Position numbers and translations under genes: made by a program. A stretch of DNA of 64,000 bases from a virus (lineage: Duplodnaviria; Caudoviricetes). The first letter of the stretch is position 1; the number at the start of each line of letters is the position of its first letter. The stretch is taken from IMG/VR virus record IMGVR_UViG_3300035180_001220, positions 1-64,000 of that record. One strand, 5' to 3'. The notes beneath the pieces are model-generated. The model was not told where the DNA came from. It searched no databases and saw only the letters and a program-made list of their open reading frames with translations. Positions 2,801 through 38,868 of the stretch are shown here, one piece after another.

Positions 2801-2890
2801 GTGCAAACTTCCTCCCTAATATCAGTAACCTATCCGTTGACAGCATATGCTGCCGGCATTGCGTTACTCCCTGGGAGCCTTCACCCTTGA
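2801..2890 (+). CDS. leader peptide 1 (29 aa, MQTSSLISVTYPLTAYAAGIALLPGSLHP) of tRNA array 1 attenuator
   Basis: GTG start with GAGA SD; stop overlaps the antiterminator 5' strand; codons match the downstream tRNAs. Confidence 0.7.
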   Translation: MQTSSLISVTYPLTAYAAGIALLPGSLHP

Positions 2891-2947
2891 CTAGAAAGTA
2901 GAAAAACTTTTAAGATCAAGGGACTTCTTAGAAGTCCCTTTTCTTTT
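2884..2947 (+). terminator. attenuator 1: antiterminator (cccttga 2884-2890 / tcaaggg 2916-2922) exclusive with terminator (aagggacttc-tta-gaagtccctt-ttctttt)
   Basis: Two hairpins share aaggg; U-tract follows the second. Confidence 0.8.
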
Positions 2948-3017: not shown

Positions 3018-3177
3018 TTTACATTGGTCTGATTGTAGTGTATAATTACTTATCAAACAAAAACGAAGGTGAATAACTGAAGCGGCGGATGCTCTAGATT
3101 TTTGCAGTGATTAACAGCAAATTTAGAAAGAAAGTTTGAAATAGTTGTTTACTTCAGTTTGAAGTATGATATAATTT
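3018..3177 (+). promoter_or_regulatory. two tandem sigma70-like promoters upstream of tRNA array 1
   Basis: tttacattggtctgattgtagtgtataat and tttacttcagtttgaagtatgatataat; boxA-like gtctttaaaa near 3246. Confidence 0.65.
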
Positions 3178-3349
3178 AATTTTACAGCAGCCTGATAGCT
3201 TACAGGTAATAGCCAAAGAACTTCATCGTAGGTTCCTTGTGATGGTCTTTAAAAATTCAGTAGAAACAATTAGCCGTACGGCTAATTGACTCTTGAATCC
3301 CTCGCGTAAGCTGTGGTTCTTTCTTGAGAAAATAAAACGTACGGACTTT

Positions 3350-11513: not shown

Positions 11514-11604
11514 GGAGTGTAGGCTGGATGGTCAGGCCCTGCAGTTTTAAACCATAGAGCCGCTAATACTGGCTCGCAGGGTTCGACTTCCCGATACTCC
11601 GCCA
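11514..11604 (+). pseudogene. Ser-type tRNA, degenerate anticodon arm (loop reads TTA)
   Basis: ggagtgt/atactcc-GCCA, long V arm, poorly paired anticodon stem. Confidence 0.5.
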
Positions 11605-22672: not shown

Positions 22673-22750
22673 GCACTATTAGCTCATTGGTAGAGCGAGG
22701 ACTTCTAAACTCCGGGCTGGGGGCAGGTTCGATCCTAACATAGCGCACCA
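22673..22750 (+). pseudogene. degenerate tRNA (anticodon TCT or CTA, ambiguous)
   Basis: D arm and ACCA present; anticodon and T stems mispaired. Confidence 0.5.
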
Positions 22751-30576: not shown

Positions 30577-30915
30577 ATGAAAGTCTATGAACTATTTGAG
30601 AACTTTGACGCCGAAGATGTGTATGACTACGCAGTGAAGCAGGGATACAGGAAACAGACTGGCACGAAGACTGTTGATGGAAAGAAGTTTCCGGTCATTG
30701 TATTGAAGAAGAATGCGGACTTTGAAGAGTTCGTACTTCAGTTTAAGTACATCATCAATCCAGAGACACAAGCTTGGACTTTCGTGGTTAGCAGGGGAGA
30801 TGAAGATGGAATTGAAATGGCCTCTGGAGAAGATGCTGAGACGCTCATCACTCACTTGAAGAAAAAGAAGAAGGTCTCAGCCCACAACCTTCAAAAATAT
30901 TTCACGCAAGACTAA
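30577..30915 (+). CDS. hypothetical protein with MKVYELFE leader
   Basis: Late promoter ATAAATA upstream; SD aagga. Confidence 0.7.
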   Translation: MKVYELFENFDAEDVYDYAVKQGYRKQTGTKTVDGKKFPVIVLKKNADFEEFVLQFKYIINPETQAWTFVVSRGDEDGIEMASGEDAETLITHLKKKKKVSAHNLQKYFTQD

Positions 30916-30923
30916 AAGAAGTG

Positions 30924-31119
30924 TGTACATTCCTCCAGACCGTGGTATAATTACTCTATCAGCAGATTAAATGCTGTTGATAATCTAAAAGATTTGGAAA
31001 ATATTTCAGCAGACTGTTTACTTTGTCTGAGACTTAGGTTATAATTGCTTTTCAACAAAAATTCTTTTGTTGAAAACAATTTTGCAGGATGTCAGAAATT
31101 TTTTGGCATCCTATAAATA
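30924..31119 (+). promoter_or_regulatory. two sigma70-like promoters and a late promoter upstream of leader 2
   Basis: tgtacatt..N..tataat, tttacttt..N..tataat, TATAAATA at 31112. Confidence 0.65.
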
Positions 31120-31166
31120 AATTCATGCAGCAATGTTGCTGCGACAGTAAAGGAAAAGAGATTATT

Positions 31167-31295
31167 ATGTTTAGCACTTCTTTTAATATGACGAACATGT
31201 TTTGGCAGCAATGTCAAGATGCAGTCGTGCGTATTGAACGCAGTGAGCATGATAAAAGACTTTCAGCCCTTAGTGATGGAGCCGGATTAGCCTAA
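31167..31295 (+). CDS. leader peptide 2 (42 aa, MFSTSFNMTNMFWQQCQDAVVRIERSEHDKRLSALSDGAGLA) of tRNA array 2 attenuator
   Basis: SD-like aagga/gaga; last codons overlap the antiterminator; codons match the array-2 anticodons. Confidence 0.75.
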   Translation: MFSTSFNMTNMFWQQCQDAVVRIERSEHDKRLSALSDGAGLA

Positions 31296-31345
31296 AGGTC
31301 AATCCTACTTAACACACTAAGGGTACTGGAAAGGTACCCTTTTTT
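31267..31345 (+). terminator. attenuator 2: antiterminator (cccttagtg 31267-31275 / cactaaggg 31315-31323) exclusive with terminator (aagggtact-ggaaa-ggtaccctt-ttt)
   Basis: Overlapping hairpins share aaggg; U-tract follows. Confidence 0.8.
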
Positions 31346-31622
31346 ATTACTCCGGAAACTGTGAAGTTTTCGATCCTTGGTTTAGGAACTACCAAGTTAA
31401 AAAAGTCTGGACCGCTAAGAATCAGTCGAGTATCCTTCAGACTGCCGAGTGCGACAAAGGAAAATAAATTTGGTGAATGAAGTCTTCTTTTGAAGACTTC
31501 ATTCTTAAGGATTTCGTTCAAGTGGCGCTTGATTAAATTAGGTTGTGGAACCTAAGCGGAAATCCTTAAGAATGAACGAATTTAAACACCATAAATAACT
31601 CCACTAAGATGGAGTTATTAGA

Positions 31623-32249
31623 ATGGAATTATTCGAGCTGTTTAAGAGATTACCAGAAGATTATGCACATAGAACTGTAGCTGGACCTGATGATAGACCA
31701 CACAATAAACCCAAATTTGATCCTAGATATTCAAAAATTGTTGGAACATTTGACAATAAAGATGTCTGGGGGTCAAAGGAAATAAAGGGTTATGATATAT
31801 TTGGTTTTAGAGATGGTGAAAAAACGATTGCATATGTTATCTTAGATGAAAGGGAAGTTAAACCAAATACACAGGAATTTAAGGAACTCTGGACTGATTC
31901 CAATTATAGAAGAAAAGGTTTAGCATCAGGATTAATTTTATTTTTAACAACTAAATGTAAGACTAATTTGCTGCTAAGTCCAGTTGAACTAGTTAGCGAT
32001 GATGCTAGAGATATTTTTAAAGTATTGGGTAAATCTGGTAAGATAAAGATAGAAGATCAGGATGGCAAATTAGATACATTTGATGAAATTTTATCAGCTA
32101 AAATGAAAACTGATTATTCTTTGTTGATACGAGAAGATGTTATTCAGAAGAAGGTATTTGGCTCAAAGATGTTTTTAGAAAATAACCAATCAACACTGGC
32201 TGAACCCTATTCAATAGGGGTTATGCAAGATTGGTCTGAGTTTGAGTGA
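31623..32249 (+). CDS. GNAT-like protein with MELFEL leader
   Basis: ELWTDSNYRRKGLASGLI. Confidence 0.7.
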   Translation: MELFELFKRLPEDYAHRTVAGPDDRPHNKPKFDPRYSKIVGTFDNKDVWGSKEIKGYDIFGFRDGEKTIAYVILDEREVKPNTQEFKELWTDSNYRRKGLASGLILFLTTKCKTNLLLSPVELVSDDARDIFKVLGKSGKIKIEDQDGKLDTFDEILSAKMKTDYSLLIREDVIQKKVFGSKMFLENNQSTLAEPYSIGVMQDWSEFE

Positions 32250-32254
32250 ATTAT

Positions 32255-32328
32255 ATAGGTGTAGTTCCAATTGGTAGAACGGTGAACTCCAAATCCACAT
32301 GTTGCAGGTTCGAATCCTGCCACCTATG
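32255..32328 (+). tRNA. tRNA-Trp(CCA)
   Basis: CT-CCA-AA loop; CCA end not encoded. Confidence 0.8.
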
Positions 32329-32451
32329 CATTCGACATTTTGGCACATGCTGGGTAACCGATGGGGTTAAACCTACCAAAATAAAGAAAAGAAATTTAGG
32401 TGAGTATCTGACTAAAGGATATTCACTTGGCAGAAAATGAGAGTTTAGAGG

Positions 32452-32526
32452 GGTGACCTTAGTGTAGCGGTAGCACAAGAGATTGTGATTCTCTTAGTAT
32501 GGGTTCAACTCTCCATAGGTCACCCC
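32452..32526 (+). tRNA. tRNA-His(GTG)
   Basis: agaga-TTGTGAT-tctct; G-1:C73. Confidence 0.85.
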
Positions 32527-32539
32527 TGTAAACTCTTAT

Positions 32540-32615
32540 GTCCCATTCGTCTAGTGGCCAAGGACGCTGCCCCCTCAAGGCGGAGACTGCAGTTCGAATC
32601 TGCAACGGGACTCCA
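32540..32615 (+). tRNA. tRNA-Glu(CTC)
   Basis: ctgcc-CCCTCAA-ggcgg; TCCA. Confidence 0.82.
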
Positions 32616-32622
32616 AGTTATT

Positions 32623-32698
32623 GCTCGCGAAGTATTAGTTGGTGGTATGCAACCTTCGTAACATTGAGGATTCGGTTCGAGGCCGGACGCGAGCTCCA
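32623..32698 (+). tRNA. tRNA-Thr(CGT)
   Basis: TT-CGT-AA loop; gctcgcg acceptor; TCCA. Confidence 0.7.
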
Positions 32699-32704
32699 TT
32701 TTAT

Positions 32705-32777
32705 ATCCTGTAAGACTAGAAGCTGGTCGTTTGGCTTTCACCCAAGAGGAACGGGGCAGTACCCGTACAGGATACCA
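32705..32777 (+). tRNA. tRNA-Glu(TTC)
   Basis: ttgg-CTTTCAC-ccaa; atypical T loop; ACCA. Confidence 0.75.
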
Positions 32778-32783
32778 ATTTAT

Positions 32784-32859
32784 GTGCGTGTGATCTGAAA
32801 GGCTAGGAACGAGATTGCAACCCTCGATTATGCAGGTTCGACTCCTGTCACGCACTCCA
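32784..32859 (+). tRNA. tRNA-Cys(GCA)
   Basis: TT-GCA-AC loop; TCCA. Confidence 0.85.
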
Positions 32860-32867
32860 AAGTTAAT

Positions 32868-32931
32868 GACAACCGGTTTTACATAGGGTTATCCTTTTAA
32901 GATTTTCCCCCTTAGTATATTTTTCGTTGTC
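32868..32931 (+). ncRNA. minimal Y-RNA-like module
   Basis: gacAAC-CGG...gGGTTATC...pyrimidine tract-GTTgtc. Confidence 0.55.
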
Positions 32932-32934
32932 TTT

Positions 32935-33010
32935 GCCGATGTGGGACAGGGGTTGTCCAGCTGATTGTCTATCAGCCTTTATGACGGTTCGAGTCCGTTC
33001 GCCGGCGCCA
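32935..33010 (+). tRNA. tRNA-Asp(GTC)
   Basis: gctga-TTGTCTA-tcagc; GCCA. Confidence 0.75.
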
Positions 33011-33016
33011 ATTCAT

Positions 33017-33092
33017 GGTTCATTAGCTCAATTGGGAGAGCGCGACACTGTCACTGTCGAGGTAACCGGATCGAAACCGGTATGGGCCGCCA
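33017..33092 (+). tRNA. tRNA-Asp(GTC)
   Basis: cgaca-CTGTCAC-tgtcg; GCCA. Confidence 0.88.
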
Positions 33093-33097
33093 AATTT

Positions 33098-33172
33098 GTT
33101 CCGTGACGCAGCTAGTGTGGCGACTTGGCCTTCACCCAAGTGAGATGGGAGCAAAACCCATACGGAACTCCA
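33098..33172 (+). tRNA. tRNA-Glu(TTC)
   Basis: cttgg-CCTTCAC-ccaag; atypical T loop; TCCA. Confidence 0.72.
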
Positions 33173-33323
33173 TAGGACATCAGGCTTAGTTTTACTAAGA
33201 GAGGTTGGACTAAGGAAGCATCAGAAATTTTAAATGTAGGTCCAGCAGTAGTTAGAAGATGGATGCGAAGAGAAATACCTGAATTTTATGAAAGGTATTG
33301 TTCATTCGGTTCAAAAAGAATAT

Positions 33324-33398
33324 GGGTCTGAAACTTTGATGGTGAAGCTTTGCCTCTTAAGCAACTGGAATCCAGTTCGAATCTGGACAGACCCACCA
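33324..33398 (+). tRNA. tRNA-Lys(CTT)
   Basis: ttgc-CTCTTAA-gcaa; ACCA. Confidence 0.82.
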
Positions 33399-33404
33399 AA
33401 TTAT

Positions 33405-33480
33405 TGGCCAGTAGCTCAGTTGGTAGAGCGCAACGCTGTTAACGTTGATGTCATAGGTTCGATGCCTGTCTGGTCAGCCA
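33405..33480 (+). tRNA. tRNA-Asn(GTT)
   Basis: caacg-CTGTTAA-cgttg; GCCA. Confidence 0.92.
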
Positions 33481-33569
33481 AATTATCCTTGTGTTAAGTG
33501 GAGCCGCTCAGGTCCTCAGCCAATACGAAGCAATGTACTCTGCGATAAAGTACCTCAAGGGCCAAATAT

Positions 33570-33645
33570 TCCATTTTAGTATTCTCGGCGAGTACCCTCG
33601 GCTGTTAACCGAAAGAGGCTAGTTCGAATCCAGCAAATGGAGCCA
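33570..33645 (+). tRNA. tRNA-Asn(GTT)
   Basis: tcgg-CTGTTAA-ccga; GCCA. Confidence 0.8.
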
Positions 33646-33653
33646 AATTAAAT

Positions 33654-33728
33654 CCCTAGGGAGCATACTGGCCATGTAATCGGCTGATAACCGATAGACA
33701 GTGAGTTCGATTCTCACACTAGGGACCA
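33654..33728 (+). tRNA. tRNA-Ile(GAT)
   Basis: atcgg-CTGATAA-ccgat; ACCA. Confidence 0.78.
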
Positions 33729-33730
33729 AT

Positions 33731-33805
33731 CGTGATGTAGCATTGAGGTAATGCACCGGTCTCATACGCCGTCCCAAGTGAGTTCGATTCTCACCATCAC
33801 AACCA
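33731..33805 (+). tRNA. tRNA-Met(CAT), initiator-like
   Basis: CT-CAT-AC loop; C1:A72 mismatch; ACCA. Confidence 0.78.
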
Positions 33806-33812
33806 AAATATT

Positions 33813-33888
33813 GCTGCTTAAGCTAATCAAGTGAAAGCGTGACCCTGAAAAGGTTGAGAGACTGGCGCGATACCAGTAGGCAGCACCA
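33813..33888 (+). tRNA. tRNA-Phe(GAA)
   Basis: CT-GAA-AA loop; ACCA. Confidence 0.8.
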
Positions 33889-33897
33889 AAGATTATA

Positions 33898-33972
33898 TGC
33901 GGGATGAATCATAAAGTACGATACCTGGCTTTGAACCAGAGTAACAAGGGGCAGTACCTTGATCCCGTTCCA
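33898..33972 (+). tRNA. tRNA-Gln(TTG)
   Basis: ctgg-CTTTGAA-ccag; CCA. Confidence 0.72.
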
Positions 33973-33979
33973 ATTTATA

Positions 33980-34055
33980 TACCGGATTGGAGTAATTGGA
34001 AACTCAACAGACTCTGACTCTGTAGTTCAAGGTTCGAGTCCTTGGTCCGGTGCCA
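33980..34055 (+). tRNA. tRNA-Gln(CTG)
   Basis: acaga-CTCTGAC-tctgt; CCA. Confidence 0.88.
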
Positions 34056-34060
34056 AATTT

Positions 34061-34135
34061 TTCTGAACCGGCAGCCAAATAGGTTATCCAAACTTCTAAT
34101 TTGACATCACCCTATTAGCATTCATTTGTTCAGAA
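34061..34135 (+). ncRNA. minimal Y-RNA-like module
   Basis: ttctgAAC-CGG..aataGGTTATC...cctatt..ttcattt-GTTcagaa. Confidence 0.6.
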
Positions 34136-34145
34136 TAAAAAATAC

Positions 34146-34214
34146 TTCTCCATGTTGACATGGAAATCATACTAGCCTGCGAAGCTGGAGGTTCAATTCC
34201 TGATGGAGAAACCA
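34146..34214 (+). tRNA. tRNA-Arg(GCG), shortened V/T region (possibly pseudogene)
   Basis: ctagc-CTGCGAA-gctgg; ACCA. Confidence 0.55.
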
Positions 34215-34222
34215 AAAAATTT

Positions 34223-34299
34223 CTGGCATTAGCATAACTGGAGAATGTACGTGTCTTCTAAATACGTTAATGTAGGTTCGACTCCTACATGTCGGGCCA
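34223..34299 (+). tRNA. tRNA-Arg(TCT)
   Basis: cgtgt-CTTCTAA-atacg; GCCA. Confidence 0.85.
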
Positions 34300-34306
34300 A
34301 ATATAT

Positions 34307-34379
34307 GCGTCCTTAGTTCAATGGTAGAGCACTGCTTTGACTCGGCGGCAATGTAGATTCGATTTCTACAGGACGTACC
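34307..34379 (+). tRNA. tRNA-Val(GAC)
   Basis: ctgct-TTGACTC-ggcgg; gcgtcct/aggacgt acceptor. Confidence 0.7.
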
Positions 34380-34385
34380 GAATGT

Positions 34386-34472
34386 GGATAATGGTGCTGC
34401 TGGGCACGAGTTGGTTTGCTAAACCGACCTACTTCGAAAGAGGTAACGGTTCGAGTCCGTCTTCATCCTCCA
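34386..34472 (+). tRNA. tRNA-Ser(GCT)
   Basis: TT-GCT-AA loop, long V arm, TCCA. Confidence 0.72.
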
Positions 34473-34518
34473 GTTTTCAAATTGGGTACATCGGATATAA
34501 TCAAATAAAAGGAATATT

Positions 34519-35127
34519 ATGTCTGACTATCCAATGCTGCAAGAAATGCCCCAAGATATCGAATCGATTGACTGGCACAAGCTAAATGACTCTTCGGAAA
34601 ATGAAGAGCTGTATAGAAAACTGAATACAAGCAAATATAAAAAGCACATATTAACTGCCTTCGATAAAGCTGAAATTTTCCAGCAAGGCTCTCAATATTT
34701 TTGCTTAGACGCTAGAATGAAACAGATTACTTATTATATGAAGTATGAAGTGAAGAATAATGGAAAATTAGGAAGTTATGTCTGGCAATCATTAGTGTGG
34801 ACATACCCAGCAGCATCTTATATTTCTGGGGTTCCACAGAAAATGTTTTTTGAATATTTGCTTCCTAAATTTGGAACTATAATTGCTGATAGCCAGCAAA
34901 CATGGGATGGAAAAAGATTCTGGAGGCTGAGATTAGCAGAAGCATTTCAAAAAAAATTAAATGTTTATTTTTACGATTTTAGTAATCATGCTATTGAAAA
35001 GATAGATGACTATAAGCATTTTGAAGAATGCGATAAAAGAAGAGGAATCTGGGGTCCGTCAGATCTAAATCAGATGAAACGTATGGTGATCTCCAACAAA
35101 GATTTGTCACTTACAAAGGGTAGTTAA
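34519..35127 (+). CDS. hypothetical protein, distant member of the GNAT-like virion family
   Basis: LQEMP leader; IADSQQTWDGKRFW. Confidence 0.7.
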   Translation: MSDYPMLQEMPQDIESIDWHKLNDSSENEELYRKLNTSKYKKHILTAFDKAEIFQQGSQYFCLDARMKQITYYMKYEVKNNGKLGSYVWQSLVWTYPAASYISGVPQKMFFEYLLPKFGTIIADSQQTWDGKRFWRLRLAEAFQKKLNVYFYDFSNHAIEKIDDYKHFEECDKRRGIWGPSDLNQMKRMVISNKDLSLTKGS

Positions 35128-35206
35128 GCTGCACTGGGTGCGCAACTGTTTCGAAAGCAGATTGACTTAGCAATAGGTTGGGGTCCGATTCCTCAGCTAC
35201 CCGCCA
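35118..35206 (+). tRNA. tRNA-Ser(CGA)
   Basis: ctgt-TTCGAAA-gcag, long V arm, GCCA. Confidence 0.68.
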
Positions 35207-35213
35207 ATTTTAT

Positions 35214-35290
35214 GCCTTGATAGTTTACTAGTTAGAACATCCTCTGTACAAGTGGAAGAAAGTGGAGCGTAACCGCGGCGAGGTGGCAGC
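35214..35290 (+). pseudogene. degenerate tRNA
   Basis: gccttga-tagtt..agaac 5' half; 3' half decayed. Confidence 0.4.
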
Positions 35291-35352
35291 TACTCGAAAT
35301 CTGCAGCATCAAAGGCGAGCCTTTAAATTTAGGATGCTGCTCTAAGAAATTT

Positions 35353-35426
35353 GCTCTCATAGTCTAATGGTAGAATGCAACTTTGGTAAGGTTGAGATGG
35401 AAGTTCAATCCTCGCAGAGAGCACCA
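35353..35426 (+). tRNA. tRNA-Thr(GGT), degenerate T arm
   Basis: caact-TTGGTAA-ggttg; ACCA. Confidence 0.65.
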
Positions 35427-35599
35427 ACAATTTTAGAAGCAGCTGGTAGAACAGCAACTGGTAGTCAGGACGTACATCGGTGTATAGGCAAATATCGGAC
35501 GGACGACGTGGGCCGAATATTACCGAATGACCCTTTGACGGTCTTACAAGTTAGTGCAGCGTATCGAACCTGTAAATCTAACCTTCTAATCACATTTAT

Positions 35600-35674
35600 G
35601 GAGTCGTCGCCTAGAGGCTTGGCACGTGGCTTTTAACCACGCATACGTGGGTTCGAATCCCACCGGCTCTACCA
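35600..35674 (+). tRNA. tRNA-Lys(TTT)
   Basis: cgtgg-CTTTTAA-ccacg; ACCA. Confidence 0.88.
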
Positions 35675-35682
35675 AATCTTAT

Positions 35683-35810
35683 GCCGATGTAGTGTAATGG
35701 TAGCACACGCAAAACATCGTTTTTACCCTTTGTTCAGAAATGAACCGTTCAAAAATGGTTATCATCATTATCAGATCGGGGAGTTGGTTCGAATCCAACC
35801 AATCGGCACC
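35683..35810 (+). ncRNA. tRNA-bodied (circularly permuted) Y-RNA-like molecule B
   Basis: Same D arm as 8731 (gatgtagtgtaatggtagcac), aaaacatcg...GTTc-loop-gAACCG..GGTTATC, T arm, gccgat/atcggc acceptor. Confidence 0.65.
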
Positions 35811-35820
35811 GCAAATTTAT

Positions 35821-35895
35821 GCCTCCTTTGTTCAACGGACAGAATAAAAGTCTTCGAAGCTTTAGATGCGGGTTTGATTCCTGCAGTGGGCGCCA
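35821..35895 (+). tRNA. tRNA-Arg(TCG)
   Basis: aaagt-CTTCGAA-gcttt; GCCA. Confidence 0.75.
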
Positions 35896-38309: not shown

Positions 38310-38801
38310 ATGAGAAAAAGAATACCGCTTGATGATATTCTAACAGTGAATAGCACCTTTGCCAGACATGCACTAAAGTTTAGATTAATTGATGAAAAGA
38401 GATTAGAATATATCTGCGATGAATGTCAAAATAGAGGCGAGTGGAATGGTAAAAAATTATCGCTGCATCTAGACCATACTAATAGTGTGTTCAATGATAA
38501 TAGAATAGAGAACCTTAGATTTCTTTGCCCCAACTGTCATGCGCAAACAGATTCTTATGCTGGGAAAAACATCATAGGCAAGAAGAATAAAGGAACTGCT
38601 AAGACTGATTATCGTTATCTAAAAAGAGAAGCGGATAAAAAGAAGTGGGATGATATTAGAAACAACTCAGGAATTGATTTCAACAAACGTGGTTGGGTTG
38701 GACAGGTTGCTGATATTTTACAAATCTCACCACAAAAGATAAATAAATGGTTACAACGAGTTGATGCTGAATTTCATTCAGCAAAATATACAGGGGTGTA
38801 G
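38310..38801 (+). CDS. HNH homing endonuclease
   Basis: CDEC...LHLDH.N....DNRIENLRFLCPNCH. Confidence 0.9.
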   Translation: MRKRIPLDDILTVNSTFARHALKFRLIDEKRLEYICDECQNRGEWNGKKLSLHLDHTNSVFNDNRIENLRFLCPNCHAQTDSYAGKNIIGKKNKGTAKTDYRYLKREADKKKWDDIRNNSGIDFNKRGWVGQVADILQISPQKINKWLQRVDAEFHSAKYTGV

Positions 38802-38868
38802 TTCCAATTGGCAGAACGGCGGCCTCCAAATCCGTATGTTGGGAGTTCGAATCTCTCCACCCCTGCCA
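38792..38868 (+). tRNA. tRNA-Trp(CCA)
   Basis: CT-CCA-AA loop; GCCA. Confidence 0.9.

What the first reader, a model, noticed from the sequence alone, without database searches (positions are those of the whole stretch)
31112..31345. Leader 2 matches array 2 at the isoacceptor level
By my count 28 of the first 31 codons are readable by array-2 anticodons. Specific pairs: ACG/Thr-CGT, GTC/Val-GAC, GAG/Glu-CTC, GAA/Glu-TTC, CAG/Gln-CTG, CAA/Gln-TTG, CGC/Arg-GCG, AGA/Arg-TCT, AGC and AGT/Ser-GCT, TGG, TGT, CAT, AAA. The exceptions are TCT, GCA and GTG. The last 11 codons (LSALSDGAGLA) mostly do not match and form the antiterminator, so sensor and switch regions are separate. Three promoters lie upstream of the leader. 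Caveat: a late promoter at ~31590 could bypass it.
Basis: partly seen in the sequence, partly recalled or inferred. Interest (0 to 1): 0.88.

Follow-up and report, generated by a model that had tools for sequence, protein, structure and literature searches.

The report
Leader-peptide switch before phage tRNA genes
A 42-codon test gene, written almost only in the amino acids carried by the tRNA genes that follow it and joined to a switchable transcription stop, probably lets this giant phage raise tRNA production when ribosomes read those codons slowly.

Summary
The ORF (31167-31295), its codons, the cccttagtg/cactaaggg pairing and the terminator (31319-31341) are as described. The count of 28 of 31 is not. 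tRNAs called by standard tools read 22 of 31. The rest need four tRNA-like elements that fail default ARAGORN and Rfam's gathering score. Given the peptide and the genome's codon usage, 22-28 is what is expected (P 0.17-0.55), so there is no isoacceptor-level signal.

The signal is at amino-acid level. 30 of 31 residues belong to the 15 amino acids of array 2, and all 15 occur; 0 of 27,885 background windows do both.

Three distant giant-phage lineages carry the same unit: a promoter-like site, a 42-43-codon ORF, antiterminator, terminator, a conserved RNA and a tRNA array. In one, 34 of 34 codons are readable by its array. Across 33 family peptides, L/A/G/P/Y make up 1.5% of the first ~30 residues and 40% of the tail. 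In folding simulations of three lineages, the antiterminator fails once the P site passes codon ~30, the composition boundary.

Best reading (0.68): a multivalent leader-peptide attenuator gating the tRNA array. There are no expression data. This scan noted the same kind of system on other giant-phage DNA. I found no published account.

The parts
30924..30951 (+). sigma-70-like promoter site (TGTACA, 16 nt, TG-TATAAT; 10 of 12)
   Evidence: consensus match only. The regional count of such sites is not above shuffles.
31017..31045 (+). sigma-70-like promoter site (TTTACT, 17 nt, TATAAT; 10 of 12)
   Evidence: Relatives L001 and L015 have a comparable site directly before their leader ORF.
31112..31119 (+). 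TATAAATA motif (recalled: resembles the T4 late-promoter -10 element)
   Evidence: 11 copies on the + strand and 1 on the - strand of the 112-kb contig. Four of them lie 28-40 nt before the start codons of ORFs (28697, 35926, 38310, 40396). The motif also stands before the leaders of L001, L015, L014 and L019.
31127..31142 (+). 5' hairpin GCAGCA/TGCTGC just after the TATAAATA motif
   Evidence: MFE. L014 has GTCGCA/TGCGAC at the same place, which gives compensatory changes.
31167..31295 (+). leader ORF, 42 codons plus TAA, preceded by the SD-like AAAGGAAAAGAG
   Evidence: Homologs of 42-43 codons occur in L001, L015, L014, L019 and P0002. The 68-aa upstream extension (31089) is not conserved: L014 has a stop there.
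31167..31259 (+). sensor part, codons 1-31: 30 of 31 residues are array-2 amino acids and all 15 types are present
31202..31217 (+). hairpin H1 inside the ORF (TTGGCA/TGTCAA, across the W-Q..C-Q codons)
   Evidence: 6 pairs, 1 compensatory, 100% of cells paired in 3 sequences
31224..31253 (+). hairpin H2 inside the ORF (GTCGTGC/GCATGAT, across the V-V-R and H-D codons)
   Evidence: 7 pairs, all invariant, so there is no covariation evidence
31266..31275 (+). segment 2, the 5' arm of the antiterminator (GCCCTTAGTG, codons 34-37)
31315..31324 (+). segment 3, the 3' arm of the antiterminator (CACTAAGGGT); it overlaps the terminator's 5' arm
31319..31347 (+). intrinsic terminator: 9-bp stem, 5-nt loop, T run
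   Evidence: hairpin -12.1 to -12.6 kcal/mol
31376..31504 (+). conserved structured RNA between the terminator and the tRNAs. P1 is 31376-31396. P2 is 31423-31444, with the conserved loop GAGTATCCTTCA. Then come CCGAGTGCGACAAAGG and TTTGGT. P3 is 31475-31504. Function unknown.
   Evidence: All 5 pairs of the P2 stem covary (CAGTC/GACTG, CGGCT/AGCCG, TCACC/GGTGA, CTGGC/GCCAG).
31590..31597 (+). CATAAATA, one letter off the TATAAATA motif, 26 nt before the GNAT-like ORF; a possible bypass promoter
   Evidence: read from the sequence only
31623..32249 (+). GNAT-like acetyltransferase ORF (208 aa) between the leader and the array; not part of the conserved unit
   Evidence: Acetyltransf_1, E 1.2e-4, 22.8 bits, cut-off 20.7; contigs of runs X5, X6 and X10 join 31487 to 32250/32251 with 47-51 other letters in between.
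32255..35895 (+). tRNA array 2. Canonical members: Trp, His, Glu-CTC, Cys, Asp x2, Lys-CTT, Asn x2, Ile-GAT, Met, Phe-GAA, Gln-CTG, Arg-TCT, Val-GAC, Ser-GCT, Thr-GGT, Lys-TTT, Arg-TCG. Divergent tRNA-like elements lie between them.

Best explanation
This is a ribosome-mediated (leader-peptide) transcription attenuator in front of the phage's second tRNA array.

Proposed mechanism. Transcripts that start upstream (two sigma-70-like sites, TATAAATA) carry a 42-codon ORF. Its first ~30 codons are a roster: every amino acid whose tRNA is in array 2 occurs, and almost no other. Codons 34-37 form the 5' arm of a helix (segment 2, GCCCTTAGTG) with segment 3 (CACTAAGGGT). Segment 3 is also the 5' arm of an intrinsic terminator.

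If the leading ribosome runs through the roster without delay, it covers segment 2, or sits between segments 2 and 3 at the stop codon, while RNA polymerase makes the terminator. The terminator then forms and transcription stops at about 31347. If the ribosome is held at any roster codon because the matching charged tRNA is scarce, segment 2 stays free and pairs with segment 3. The terminator cannot form, and transcription runs on through a conserved structured RNA into the tRNA genes. The expected result is negative feedback on tRNA supply, working as an OR gate over about 15 amino-acid types.

Shown here: the sequence anatomy; its conservation and covariation; the composition rule; and the coincidence of the composition boundary with the simulated switch point.

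Inferred: that the ORF is translated; that stalling happens; that readthrough changes; and what depletes the tRNAs (host shut-off or anticodon nucleases are guesses).
For: 1. Anatomy in the window. The ORF is followed by a terminator, and a 9-10-nt perfect complement joins ORF codons 34-37 to the terminator's 5' arm. Only 2 of 5000 dinucleotide shuffles of the ORF give so long a complement. The 201-nt stretch folds with z = -5.7, and its MFE contains the antiterminator.

2. Composition. 30 of 31 sensor residues are array-2 amino acids and all 15 types are present. Of 27,885 background windows, 4 reach 30 in-set residues, 41 hold all 15 types, and none does both. The tail has 2 of 11 readable codons.

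3. Replicate in relative L001/L009 (358-kb contig; the neighbouring 619-aa protein is 36% identical). A 42-codon homolog sits about 260 nt before an array of 14 amino-acid types. All of its first 34 codons are readable, all 14 types are present, and no other type occurs. None of 39,157 background windows reaches this.

4. L015 (107-kb contig) and L019 (368-kb contig) have the same unit. In all four lineages the ORF has 42-43 codons, segment 2 lies in codons 33-37, it ends 18-20 nt before the stop, the 2:3 helix has 8-11 bp, and the terminator scores -12.6 to -25.2 kcal/mol.

5. Covariation. CCCTTAGTG/CACTAAGGG in the window corresponds to CCCTCAGTG/CACTGAGGG in the relatives. The terminator arms differ between lineages but stay complementary. 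On the 3-sequence alignment, 68 of 68 cells are paired, against 23.5-41.2% in the slid controls.

6. Ribosome-footprint simulation. The 2:3 helix is intact with the P site at codon 28-29 or earlier and is gone from codon 31, in the window, L001 and L015. That is where the in-set run ends (31, 34 and 31 codons).

7. Family. A profile search gave 33 hits at E <= 0.001, of which 31 are peptides of 33-53 aa. In 33 peptides, L/A/G/P/Y make up 15 of 995 sensor residues (1.5%), 25 of 132 in the four residues before the conserved Leu, and 106 of 263 in the tail (40%).

8. Substitutions between homologs are mostly non-synonymous but stay inside the set (for example 9 non-synonymous against 2 synonymous, window against L014). 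A 1-nt indel frameshifts the tail of L014 relative to P0002 while keeping its length. So composition and length are kept, not the tail peptide.

9. Close relatives lack the GNAT-like gene and place the leader unit next to tRNA-Trp.

10. A second short ORF upstream of array 1 (2801-2890) is written in the complementary amino acids L, A, G, P, S, T, V, I, Y.
Against: There are no expression data: none of the 18 listed sequencing runs is on record as RNA, so translation, stalling and regulated readthrough are all unobserved.

Codon choice is not better matched to the array's anticodons than the amino-acid sequence predicts (P = 0.55, 0.48 and 0.17). By canonical tRNAs 9 of 31 codons are unreadable: TCT, ACG, CAA x2, GCA, GTG, CGT, GAA, CGC.

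Each tRNA is probed by only 1-4 scattered codons, not by runs as in the his or trp leaders. Sensitivity to mild shortage would therefore be low (inference).

In the window no anti-antiterminator (segment 1) was found, and the MFE without a ribosome has the antiterminator formed. Untranslated transcripts would then read through. In L001 and L015 the terminator is thermodynamically favoured at nearly every ribosome position once it is fully transcribed, so the switch has to be kinetic.

A core motif (W-Q-x-C-Q-x-x-V-V-R-F/I-E-R-x-E-H-D) is conserved more tightly than a pure composition rule requires.

L019 is a weaker case. By default ARAGORN of 34 codons are readable. It reaches 31 of 34 only with a Phe tRNA seen by Rfam and relaxed ARAGORN and a Trp tRNA seen by relaxed ARAGORN alone, and two Ser codons have no Ser tRNA in the held part of the array.

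A promoter-like CATAAATA and a protein gene lie between the leader and the array in this phage.

Covariation in the 2:3 helix rests on one compensatory pair among four lineages.
Confidence: 0.68

Rival explanations
1. It is a leader-peptide attenuator, but the signal is not the supply of the array's tRNAs. The conserved core peptide (W-Q-x-C-Q-x-x-V-V-R-F-E-R-x-E-H-D) could act as a nascent arrest peptide. Alternatively, the unit could simply report general ribosome availability or transcription-translation coupling.
For: The core motif is invariant or nearly so across the 5-sequence alignment and is recognisable in the 31 short hits. This is more than a composition rule needs. There is no codon-level signal beyond the amino-acid level. 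Single scattered codons make a weak hunger sensor (inference).
Against: An arrest peptide would not explain the near-total exclusion of L/A/G/P/Y from the variable positions as well (15 of 995). It would also not explain why the allowed set equals the amino-acid set of the adjacent array in two distant lineages, nor the complementary composition of the ORF before array 1. Part of the motif conservation can be explained at RNA level: TGGCA/TGCCA and GTCGTGC/GCATGAT pair as hairpins H1 and H2.
Confidence: 0.14
2. It is an ordinary small phage gene: a 42-aa protein acting in trans, for example on tRNA processing or as an anti-defence factor. It has its own promoter and a leaky terminator, and it is merely the first gene of the tRNA region.
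For: Gene callers predict it in many assemblies. The core sequence is conserved. Terminators after short phage genes are common (general knowledge). A GNAT-like gene follows it here.
Against: Substitutions are mostly non-synonymous. A frameshift in the tail is tolerated. A 30-residue stretch with 1.5% L/A/G/P/Y is unlike a folded protein. There is no Pfam match at E <= 1, and the only PHROG match is at E 0.19. This reading does not explain the conserved complementarity between the ORF's 3' part and the terminator arm, or why the composition boundary falls at the simulated switch point.
Confidence: 0.11
3. It is a structured non-coding RNA (an sRNA or a processing leader of the tRNA precursor), and the open frame is incidental.
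For: Fold z-scores are strong: -5.7, -8.1 and -6.7. Hairpins H1 and H2 lie inside the frame. A further conserved structured RNA follows the terminator.
Against: The frame is open with 42-43 codons, and with start and stop at matching places, in all five DNA or protein homologs and in most of the 31 family representatives, despite about 45-70% identity. Indels inside the frame come in threes. The composition rule is defined on the translation. No Rfam family matches: the gathering-score search found only tRNAs, and at E <= 10 the best match scores 21 bits against a cut-off of 83.
Confidence: 0.05

Closest known systems
Multivalent leader-peptide attenuators of enterobacterial amino-acid operons (thr leader: Thr and Ile; ilvGMEDA leader: Ile, Leu, Val; also trp, his, leu, pheA). 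Named from my own knowledge; general accounts were seen only as listings and abstracts (PMC1183508, PMC2965389).
   Same: A short translated ORF lies in the leader. Its codons are cognate to what the operon supplies. An antiterminator overlaps the ORF's end, excludes an intrinsic terminator, and is set by the position of the ribosome. More than one amino acid is sensed.
   Different: The controlled genes are tRNA genes, not biosynthetic enzymes. About 14-15 amino-acid types are listed, each 1-4 times and scattered, instead of runs of one to three types. The ORF is long (42 codons) and holds two hairpins. In the window there is no evident anti-antiterminator, though the relatives have one candidate in the 5' UTR. 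It belongs to a phage.
pheST attenuator of E. coli (a Phe-codon leader before phenylalanyl-tRNA synthetase). Recalled; no paper was read here.
   Same: Leader-peptide attenuation applied to a gene of the translation apparatus, and read out through one tRNA's charging.
   Different: One amino acid; a protein gene; a cellular system.
T-box riboswitch (Rfam RF00230; accession recalled)
   Same: Senses the tRNA state and sets an antiterminator/terminator choice before genes of the translation apparatus.
   Different: A T-box binds uncharged tRNA directly and needs no ORF. Here no Rfam family other than tRNA reached its gathering score in the window, and nothing credible appeared at E <= 10 in 30850-32300. 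The unit is built round a translated frame.
Anabaena sp. PCC 7120 trn operon (long tRNA array induced under translational stress): PMC8421152 (passages read) and PMC10272220 (abstract listing; word search)
   Same: An accessory tRNA array that is kept low and raised when translation is impaired.
   Different: [quoted passage not shown] The words attenuat-, leader and terminator occur 0 times in both texts, and uORF 0 times in PMC10272220, the only text where it was searched.
Notes of this scan on other giant-phage genomes (e1-5618024, e1-5326844, e1-5989972, e1-5825521, e1-5656129, e1-6032651, e1-5836933, e1-6012452)
   Same: The same idea: a short ORF written in the amino acids of the following tRNA block, joined to a terminator/antiterminator switch.
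   Different: These are AI notes on other DNA that I did not check. Whether those leaders are homologous to the 42-aa family described here is unknown.

Membership tests
Leader-peptide (ribosome-mediated) transcription attenuator | Short ORF with a start codon and ribosome-binding site in the 5' leader, downstream of a promoter | tested here: met
   ATG at 31167 preceded by AAAGGAAAAGAG; promoter-like sites at 30924, 31017 and 31112. The frame is conserved at 42-43 codons in four lineages. Translation itself was not observed.
Leader-peptide (ribosome-mediated) transcription attenuator | Intrinsic terminator between the ORF and the controlled genes | tested here: met
   31319-31341 plus a T run; conserved in L001, L015 and L019.
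Leader-peptide (ribosome-mediated) transcription attenuator | Alternative helix (antiterminator) that excludes the terminator and can be blocked by a ribosome at the end of the ORF | tested here: met
   2:3 helix of 8-11 bp in four lineages. Shuffles reach it 2, 1 and 1 times in 5000. One compensatory pair. The simulation places loss of the helix at P-site codon ~30 in the window, L001 and L015.
Leader-peptide (ribosome-mediated) transcription attenuator | Regulatory codons cognate to the product of the controlled genes | tested here: met
   Met at amino-acid level: 30 of 31 in set with 15 of 15 types; 34 of 34 with 14 of 14 types in L001; family-wide 1.5% against 40%. At isoacceptor level nothing is added beyond the amino-acid level.
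Leader-peptide (ribosome-mediated) transcription attenuator | Anti-antiterminator or pause hairpin (1:2) that gives termination when the leader is not translated | tested here: inconclusive
   In L001 and L015 the 5' UTR CACUGAG pairs with segment 2 in the MFE, and L019 has CTGAGG in its 5' UTR. No such partner was found in the window, where the untranslated MFE holds the antiterminator.
Leader-peptide (ribosome-mediated) transcription attenuator | Readthrough rises when the cognate charged tRNA is scarce | not testable with these tools
   None of the 18 listed holders is on record as RNA. This needs reporter, toeprint or term-seq experiments.
Leader-peptide (ribosome-mediated) transcription attenuator | No independent promoter between the terminator and the controlled genes | tested here: inconclusive
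   In the window, CATAAATA at 31590 stands before a GNAT-like ORF. This stretch is missing in close relatives. No promoter-like site was found between the terminator and the first tRNA in L001.
T-box riboswitch | Match to the T-box covariance model (Stem I with specifier loop, T-box antiterminator bulge) | tested here: not met
   No match at the gathering score or at E <= 10.
Known protein family (Pfam, PHROGs) | Significant profile match of the 42-aa product | tested here: not met
   Pfam: 0 families at E <= 1. PHROGs: only phrog_38781, of unknown function, at E 0.19.

The most novel reading that the evidence does not exclude
Giant phages carry a widespread, homologous family of 42-codon 'roster' leaders (at least 31 clusters at 50% identity). 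Each leader lists every amino acid of the tRNA block behind it. The phage would thereby measure, codon by codon, whether any one of about 14-15 tRNA types has become limiting, for instance after host tRNA cleavage by anticodon nucleases or phage-induced shut-off. It would then switch that block on, and switch it off once its own tRNAs restore fast decoding. Together with the complementary leader before array 1, the tRNA genes would be sorted into blocks so that each block can be sensed separately.
Probability: 0.5. Interest if true: 0.9.

Novelty: new variant of a known kind. Interest (0 to 1): 0.8.

Why it matters
Leader-peptide attenuation is a textbook mechanism, known to me for amino-acid biosynthetic operons and for at least one synthetase operon. 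I found no account of it controlling tRNA genes, or of a leader that lists about 15 amino acids at once.

If the reading is right, three things follow. It explains why the tRNA genes of giant phages are sorted by amino acid into separate blocks. It shows how phages could regulate tRNA supply without a protein regulator. And it provides a natural, compact sensor of decoding speed for many codons, which can be tested directly with reporters.

It also offers an indirect test of which of the many odd tRNA-like genes in these phages actually decode. The leader is a list of what the array is expected to read.

Tried and rejected
No close relatives were found in GenBank phages. blastn of 30900-32300 and tblastn of the neighbouring 619-aa protein gave no match. 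tblastn of the leader peptides of the window and of L019 gave only E >= 1. The GNAT-like protein found no viral relative.

The search for related loci with the two-peptide alignment confirmed none of 115 stretches. It did not even recover the known relative, so it is unsuitable for so short a query.

The DNA pattern for the downstream RNA element gave 6 stretches in viral contigs. Five of them (L002-L006) are chance hits in high-GC coding DNA. The peptide-level pattern gave 7 stretches in metagenome contigs. Four of them (L008, L011-L013) are chance hits.

RNA evidence: no RNA holder is listed among the 18 runs, so expression could not be examined. All four runs laid were DNA contigs. The table of differing letters was cut (16 rows not shown), so variants in 31222-31487 were not seen.

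T-box, riboswitch or known sRNA: nothing in Rfam.

My first terminator-occupancy simulation used wrong arm coordinates for L015. My first antiterminator simulation used a one-base shift for the window's segment 2. Both were redone, and the wrong rows are not used. The simulation was not run for L019.

Equilibrium folding that includes the full terminator always prefers the terminator in L001. Thermodynamics alone therefore cannot show the switch there.

I considered that the composition bias might be a nucleotide-composition effect. I rejected this by reasoning only: Arg CGN codons are frequent in the sensor, while Leu TTA and Tyr TAT are absent.

The three further Rfam tRNA matches in L019 were typed only by relaxed ARAGORN.

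No supplementary files of papers were consulted.
Full report
**What is there**

The window is the first 64 kb of a 112,303-bp virus contig with 41% G+C. CheckV estimates it at 32% complete, so it is a fragment of a giant phage.

At 31167-31295 there is a 42-codon frame, MFSTSFNMTNMFWQQCQDAVVRIERSEHDKRLSALSDGAGLA, preceded by AAAGGAAAAGAG. Upstream lie two 10-of-12 sigma-70-like sites (30924-30951, 31017-31045) and a TATAAATA motif at 31112, which is the finding's start coordinate. TATAAATA occurs 11 times on the + strand and once on the - strand of the contig. Four copies lie 28-40 nt before ORF starts. Its likeness to the T4 late-promoter element is recalled, not tested.

Downstream, 31319-31341 is a 9-bp hairpin followed by a T run. 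CCCTTAGTG (31267-31275, codons 34-37) is the exact complement of CACTAAGGG (31315-31323), which overlaps the terminator's 5' arm. The 201 nt around the ORF fold with z = -5.7, and the MFE contains this antiterminator.

**The codon count**

Default ARAGORN and Rfam give array 2 these anticodons: CCA, GTG, CTC, GCA, GTC (twice), CTT, GTT (twice), GAT, CAT, GAA (Rfam only, 33813-33885), CTG, TCT, GAC, GCT, GGT, TTT and TCG. With standard wobble they read 22 of the first 31 codons. The misses are TCT, ACG, CAA (twice), GCA, GTG, CGT, GAA and CGC.

- Thr-CGT and Glu-TTC, which ARAGORN reports only at relaxed thresholds.
- Gln-TTG and Arg-GCG, which no tool reports.

All four are real tRNA-like sequences. 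Thr-CGT and Arg-GCG align with canonical tRNAs of the relative L009. The Gln-TTG-like element folds with an acceptor stem, an anticodon loop CUUUGAA and a T-like arm. Their function as decoders is open.

More important is what the counts mean. The observed counts are 22, 24 and 28, with P = 0.55, 0.48 and 0.17. The claim in the finding's title, matching at isoacceptor level, is therefore not supported.

**The amino-acid signal**

Thirty of the 31 residues belong to the 15 amino acids of array 2 (W, H, E, C, D, K, N, I, M, F, Q, R, V, S, T), and all 15 occur. Among 27,885 31-codon windows from 142 ORFs of at least 100 aa, 4 reach 30 in-set residues, 41 contain all 15 types, and none does both. 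The tail (LSALSDGAGLA) has 2 of 11 readable codons.

The boundary at codon 31 was chosen after the fact. That weakens any single P value, which is why the replicates below matter.

**Relatives**

The 619-aa protein upstream led to L001, a 358-kb viral contig (36% identity). About 3 kb further on that contig there is a 42-codon ORF, MRTMFRNITMKNWQDKCQRTVVRFEREHDNTHVTLSEGSKEG. It is 44% identical to the window's peptide and lies about 260 nt before a tRNA array.

Pattern scans and protein searches added these homologs:
- L015/L010, a 107,697-bp contig.
- L018/L019, contigs of 48,846 and 368,054 bp.
- L014, a 1,118-bp contig cut just after the stop.
- P0002, protein only.

All have 42-43 codons. 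The 68-aa form called by gene finders (P0001) is not conserved, because L014 has a stop in the extension.

Contigs in runs X5, X6 and X10, laid at 80% or more likeness, join 31487 to 32250/32251 with 47-51 other letters between. The GNAT-like gene (31623-32249) is therefore an insertion peculiar to this phage or a deletion in those relatives. The ancestral arrangement puts the leader unit directly before tRNA-Trp, as in L001, L015 and L019.

**Replication of the roster**

The array behind the L001 leader, read on L009, holds 31 ARAGORN tRNAs. One is a doubtful 86-nt 'Ala-CGC', which I left out of the set. The other 30 cover 14 amino acids. All of the first 34 leader codons are readable by them, all 14 amino acids occur, and no other does. 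None of 39,157 background windows reaches 34 of 34.

L015's first 31 codons are 31 of 31 readable against that same set. Against the part of its own array held in the locus the count is only 18 of 31, because the locus ends early.

L019 is weaker. By default ARAGORN of 34 codons are readable. A Phe-GAA tRNA seen by Rfam and relaxed ARAGORN, and a Trp-CCA tRNA seen by relaxed ARAGORN alone, would raise this to 31 of 34. Two Ser codons and GTG remain unmatched.

**The family**

A profile of five peptides, searched against 1.84 billion representatives, gave 33 hits at E <= 0.001. Thirty-one are peptides of 33-53 aa, and two are unrelated long proteins (P0009, P0016).

I aligned 33 peptides: the window, L001, P0002 and 30 of the hits. 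The N-terminally truncated P0005 was dropped. L/A/G/P/Y make up:
- 15 of 995 residues in the first ~30 positions (1.5%);
- 25 of 132 in the four residues before a conserved Leu;
- 106 of 263 from that Leu onward (40%).

These sequences are related, so they are not independent trials. But they differ at most positions, and almost none of those differences introduces an excluded amino acid. Pairwise comparisons show mostly non-synonymous changes (window against L014: 9 non-synonymous, 2 synonymous in 31 codons). A 1-nt indel frameshifts L014's tail relative to P0002 and moves the stop by only one codon. What is kept is the frame, its length, the composition of the first part and the nucleotide sequence of the switch. 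The tail peptide is not kept.

**The switch**

In the four lineages with DNA, segment 2 lies in codons 33-37 and ends 18-20 nt before the stop codon. The 2:3 helix has 8-11 bp. The terminators score -12.6 to -25.2 kcal/mol and have T-rich tails.

The window has CCCTTAGTG/CACTAAGGG where the others have CCCTCAGTG/CACTGAGGG, a compensatory change. The distal terminator arms differ between lineages (GGGTAC, GGGTTCC, GGGAGC) but remain complementary.

Shuffling the ORF gives an equally long complement to the terminator flank in 2, 1 and 1 of 5000 trials for the window, L001 and L015. On the three-sequence alignment, 68 of 68 cells of H1, H2 and the 2:3 helix are paired, against 23.5-41.2% when the partners are slid. 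Two pairs show changes on both sides, and with three sequences the shuffle control is weak (60 of 500).

I modelled a ribosome as protecting up to 15 nt 3' of the first P-site base and folded the RNA from there to the terminator loop. The 2:3 helix is complete with the P site at codon 28-29 or earlier and absent from codon 31, in the window, L001 and L015. This is where the roster ends (31, 34 and 31 codons). A stall inside the roster leaves the antiterminator free, and a stall beyond it does not.

In L001 and L015 the full-length MFE pairs segment 2 with CACUGAG in the 5' UTR and forms the terminator, the classical 1:2 plus 3:4 arrangement (z = -8.1 and -6.7). In the window no such partner is seen, and the untranslated RNA holds the antiterminator. 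In L001 the terminator is the more stable structure once it is fully made, so the choice must be kinetic, as it is in the trp attenuator (recalled).

**Why the core peptide is so conserved**

W-Q-x-C-Q and V-V-R...H-D are nearly invariant. At RNA level, TGGCA pairs with TGCCA (H1; one compensatory pair and one G-U change), and GTCGTGC pairs with GCATGAT (H2; invariant).

Residues that occur only once in the roster (Trp, Cys, His) would also be held by the need to keep every type present. Both points are inference. A nascent-peptide effect cannot be excluded and is kept as a rival.

**Context in this genome**

A short frame upstream of array 1 (GTG at 2801, VQTSSLISVTYPLTAYAAGIALLPGSLHP) is followed by cccttga/tcaaggg and a terminator. 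It is written in the amino acids that leader 2 avoids. I only read it and did not test it. Two sigma-70-like sites lie between its terminator and the first tRNA of array 1 (read).

**Comparison with what is known**

The anatomy meets the sequence-level criteria of a leader-peptide attenuator. The response itself is untested. The nearest known systems are the multivalent attenuators (thr, ilvGMEDA) and the pheST attenuator, named from my own knowledge.

It is not a T-box. The Anabaena trn array is a functional parallel, being induced under translational stress. It is controlled at the promoter by direct repeats and TrcR, and neither paper's text contains attenuat-, leader or terminator.

Four full-text searches found no account of leader-peptide control of tRNA genes. 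From those searches I saw listings and abstracts only.

This scan's notebook holds at least eight notes of the same idea on other giant-phage genomes. They are unchecked AI notes, and I count them as agreement, not as evidence.

**Verdict**

The interpretation as an attenuator matched to the array is well supported by comparison. The isoacceptor-level claim is not. Everything dynamic (translation, stalling, regulated readthrough, the trigger) remains to be shown.

Noticed in passing
window 31376-31504; L001 11640-11750; L015 3020-3146; L019 about 2110-2230: A conserved structured RNA lies between the leader's terminator and the first tRNA. It consists of a variable hairpin P1, then CTGGACCGC, then a 5-bp stem P2 with the conserved 12-nt loop GAGTA(T/G)(C/T)CTT(C/T)A, then CGAGTGCGAYAAAGG and TTTGGT, then a variable hairpin P3. 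All 5 pairs of P2 covary (CAGTC/GACTG, CGGCT/AGCCG, TCACC/GGTGA, CTGGC/GCCAG). It is single-copy in the contig and has no Rfam match. TTTGGT is complementary to the ACCAAA found at many tRNA 3' ends and trailers here. Function unknown.
   Followed up: partly
window 31488-32249: The stretch holding two long hairpins and the GNAT-like ORF (31623-32249) is absent from contigs of close relatives in three runs. Those contigs join 31487 to 32250/32251 with 47-51 other letters between.
   Followed up: partly
window 32706-32777, 33098-33172, 33899-33972; L015 about 3150-3230: tRNA-like genes lie between canonical tRNAs. They have an acceptor stem, NCCA and a 7-nt anticodon loop (UUC, UUC, UUG; GUG in L015), but an unusual T arm with loop GGCAGUA or AGCAAAA instead of TTCGAAT, and odd or missing D arms. 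The same kind occurs in a distant relative, so they are probably not mere decay products.
   Followed up: partly
window 35681-35812: An acceptor-like stem (GCCGATG...CATCGGC, then ACC) with D and T arms encloses an insert of roughly 55 nt where the anticodon arm should be. ARAGORN gives inconsistent calls for it.
   Followed up: no
window 32623-32698 and 34148-34213: Divergent counterparts of the relative's canonical tRNA-Thr(CGT) and tRNA-Arg(GCG), with weakened or shortened anticodon stems. They are either decaying genes or non-canonical decoders.
   Followed up: partly
window 2801-2945: A short frame before array 1 is written in L, A, G, P, S, T, V, I, Y. Its stop codon lies inside cccttga, which is complementary to tcaaggg at the foot of a terminator. 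Two sigma-70-like promoter sites (about 3019-3047 and 3149-3175) lie after that terminator and before the first tRNA.
   Followed up: partly
whole contig: TATAAATA occurs 11 times on the + strand and once on the - strand, often 28-40 nt before start codons. It also stands before the leaders of all the relatives. It is probably a phage-specific promoter element.
   Followed up: partly
window 38310-38801: An HNH endonuclease ORF (Pfam HNH, E 5e-5) ends inside or next to tRNA-Trp (38792-38868), which is a second Trp-CCA copy outside the main array.
   Followed up: no
window 11514-11604 and 22673-22750: ARAGORN calls a 91-nt tRNA with anticodon TTA (reads the stop codon TAA). At a relaxed threshold it also calls one with CTA (reads TAG). 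These are possible suppressor tRNAs and were not examined.
   Followed up: no
protein P0001: The window's own 68-aa gene call is on record on 6 contigs, the longest of 290,571 bp. This fits the estimate that the 112-kb contig is about a third of the phage genome.
   Followed up: no
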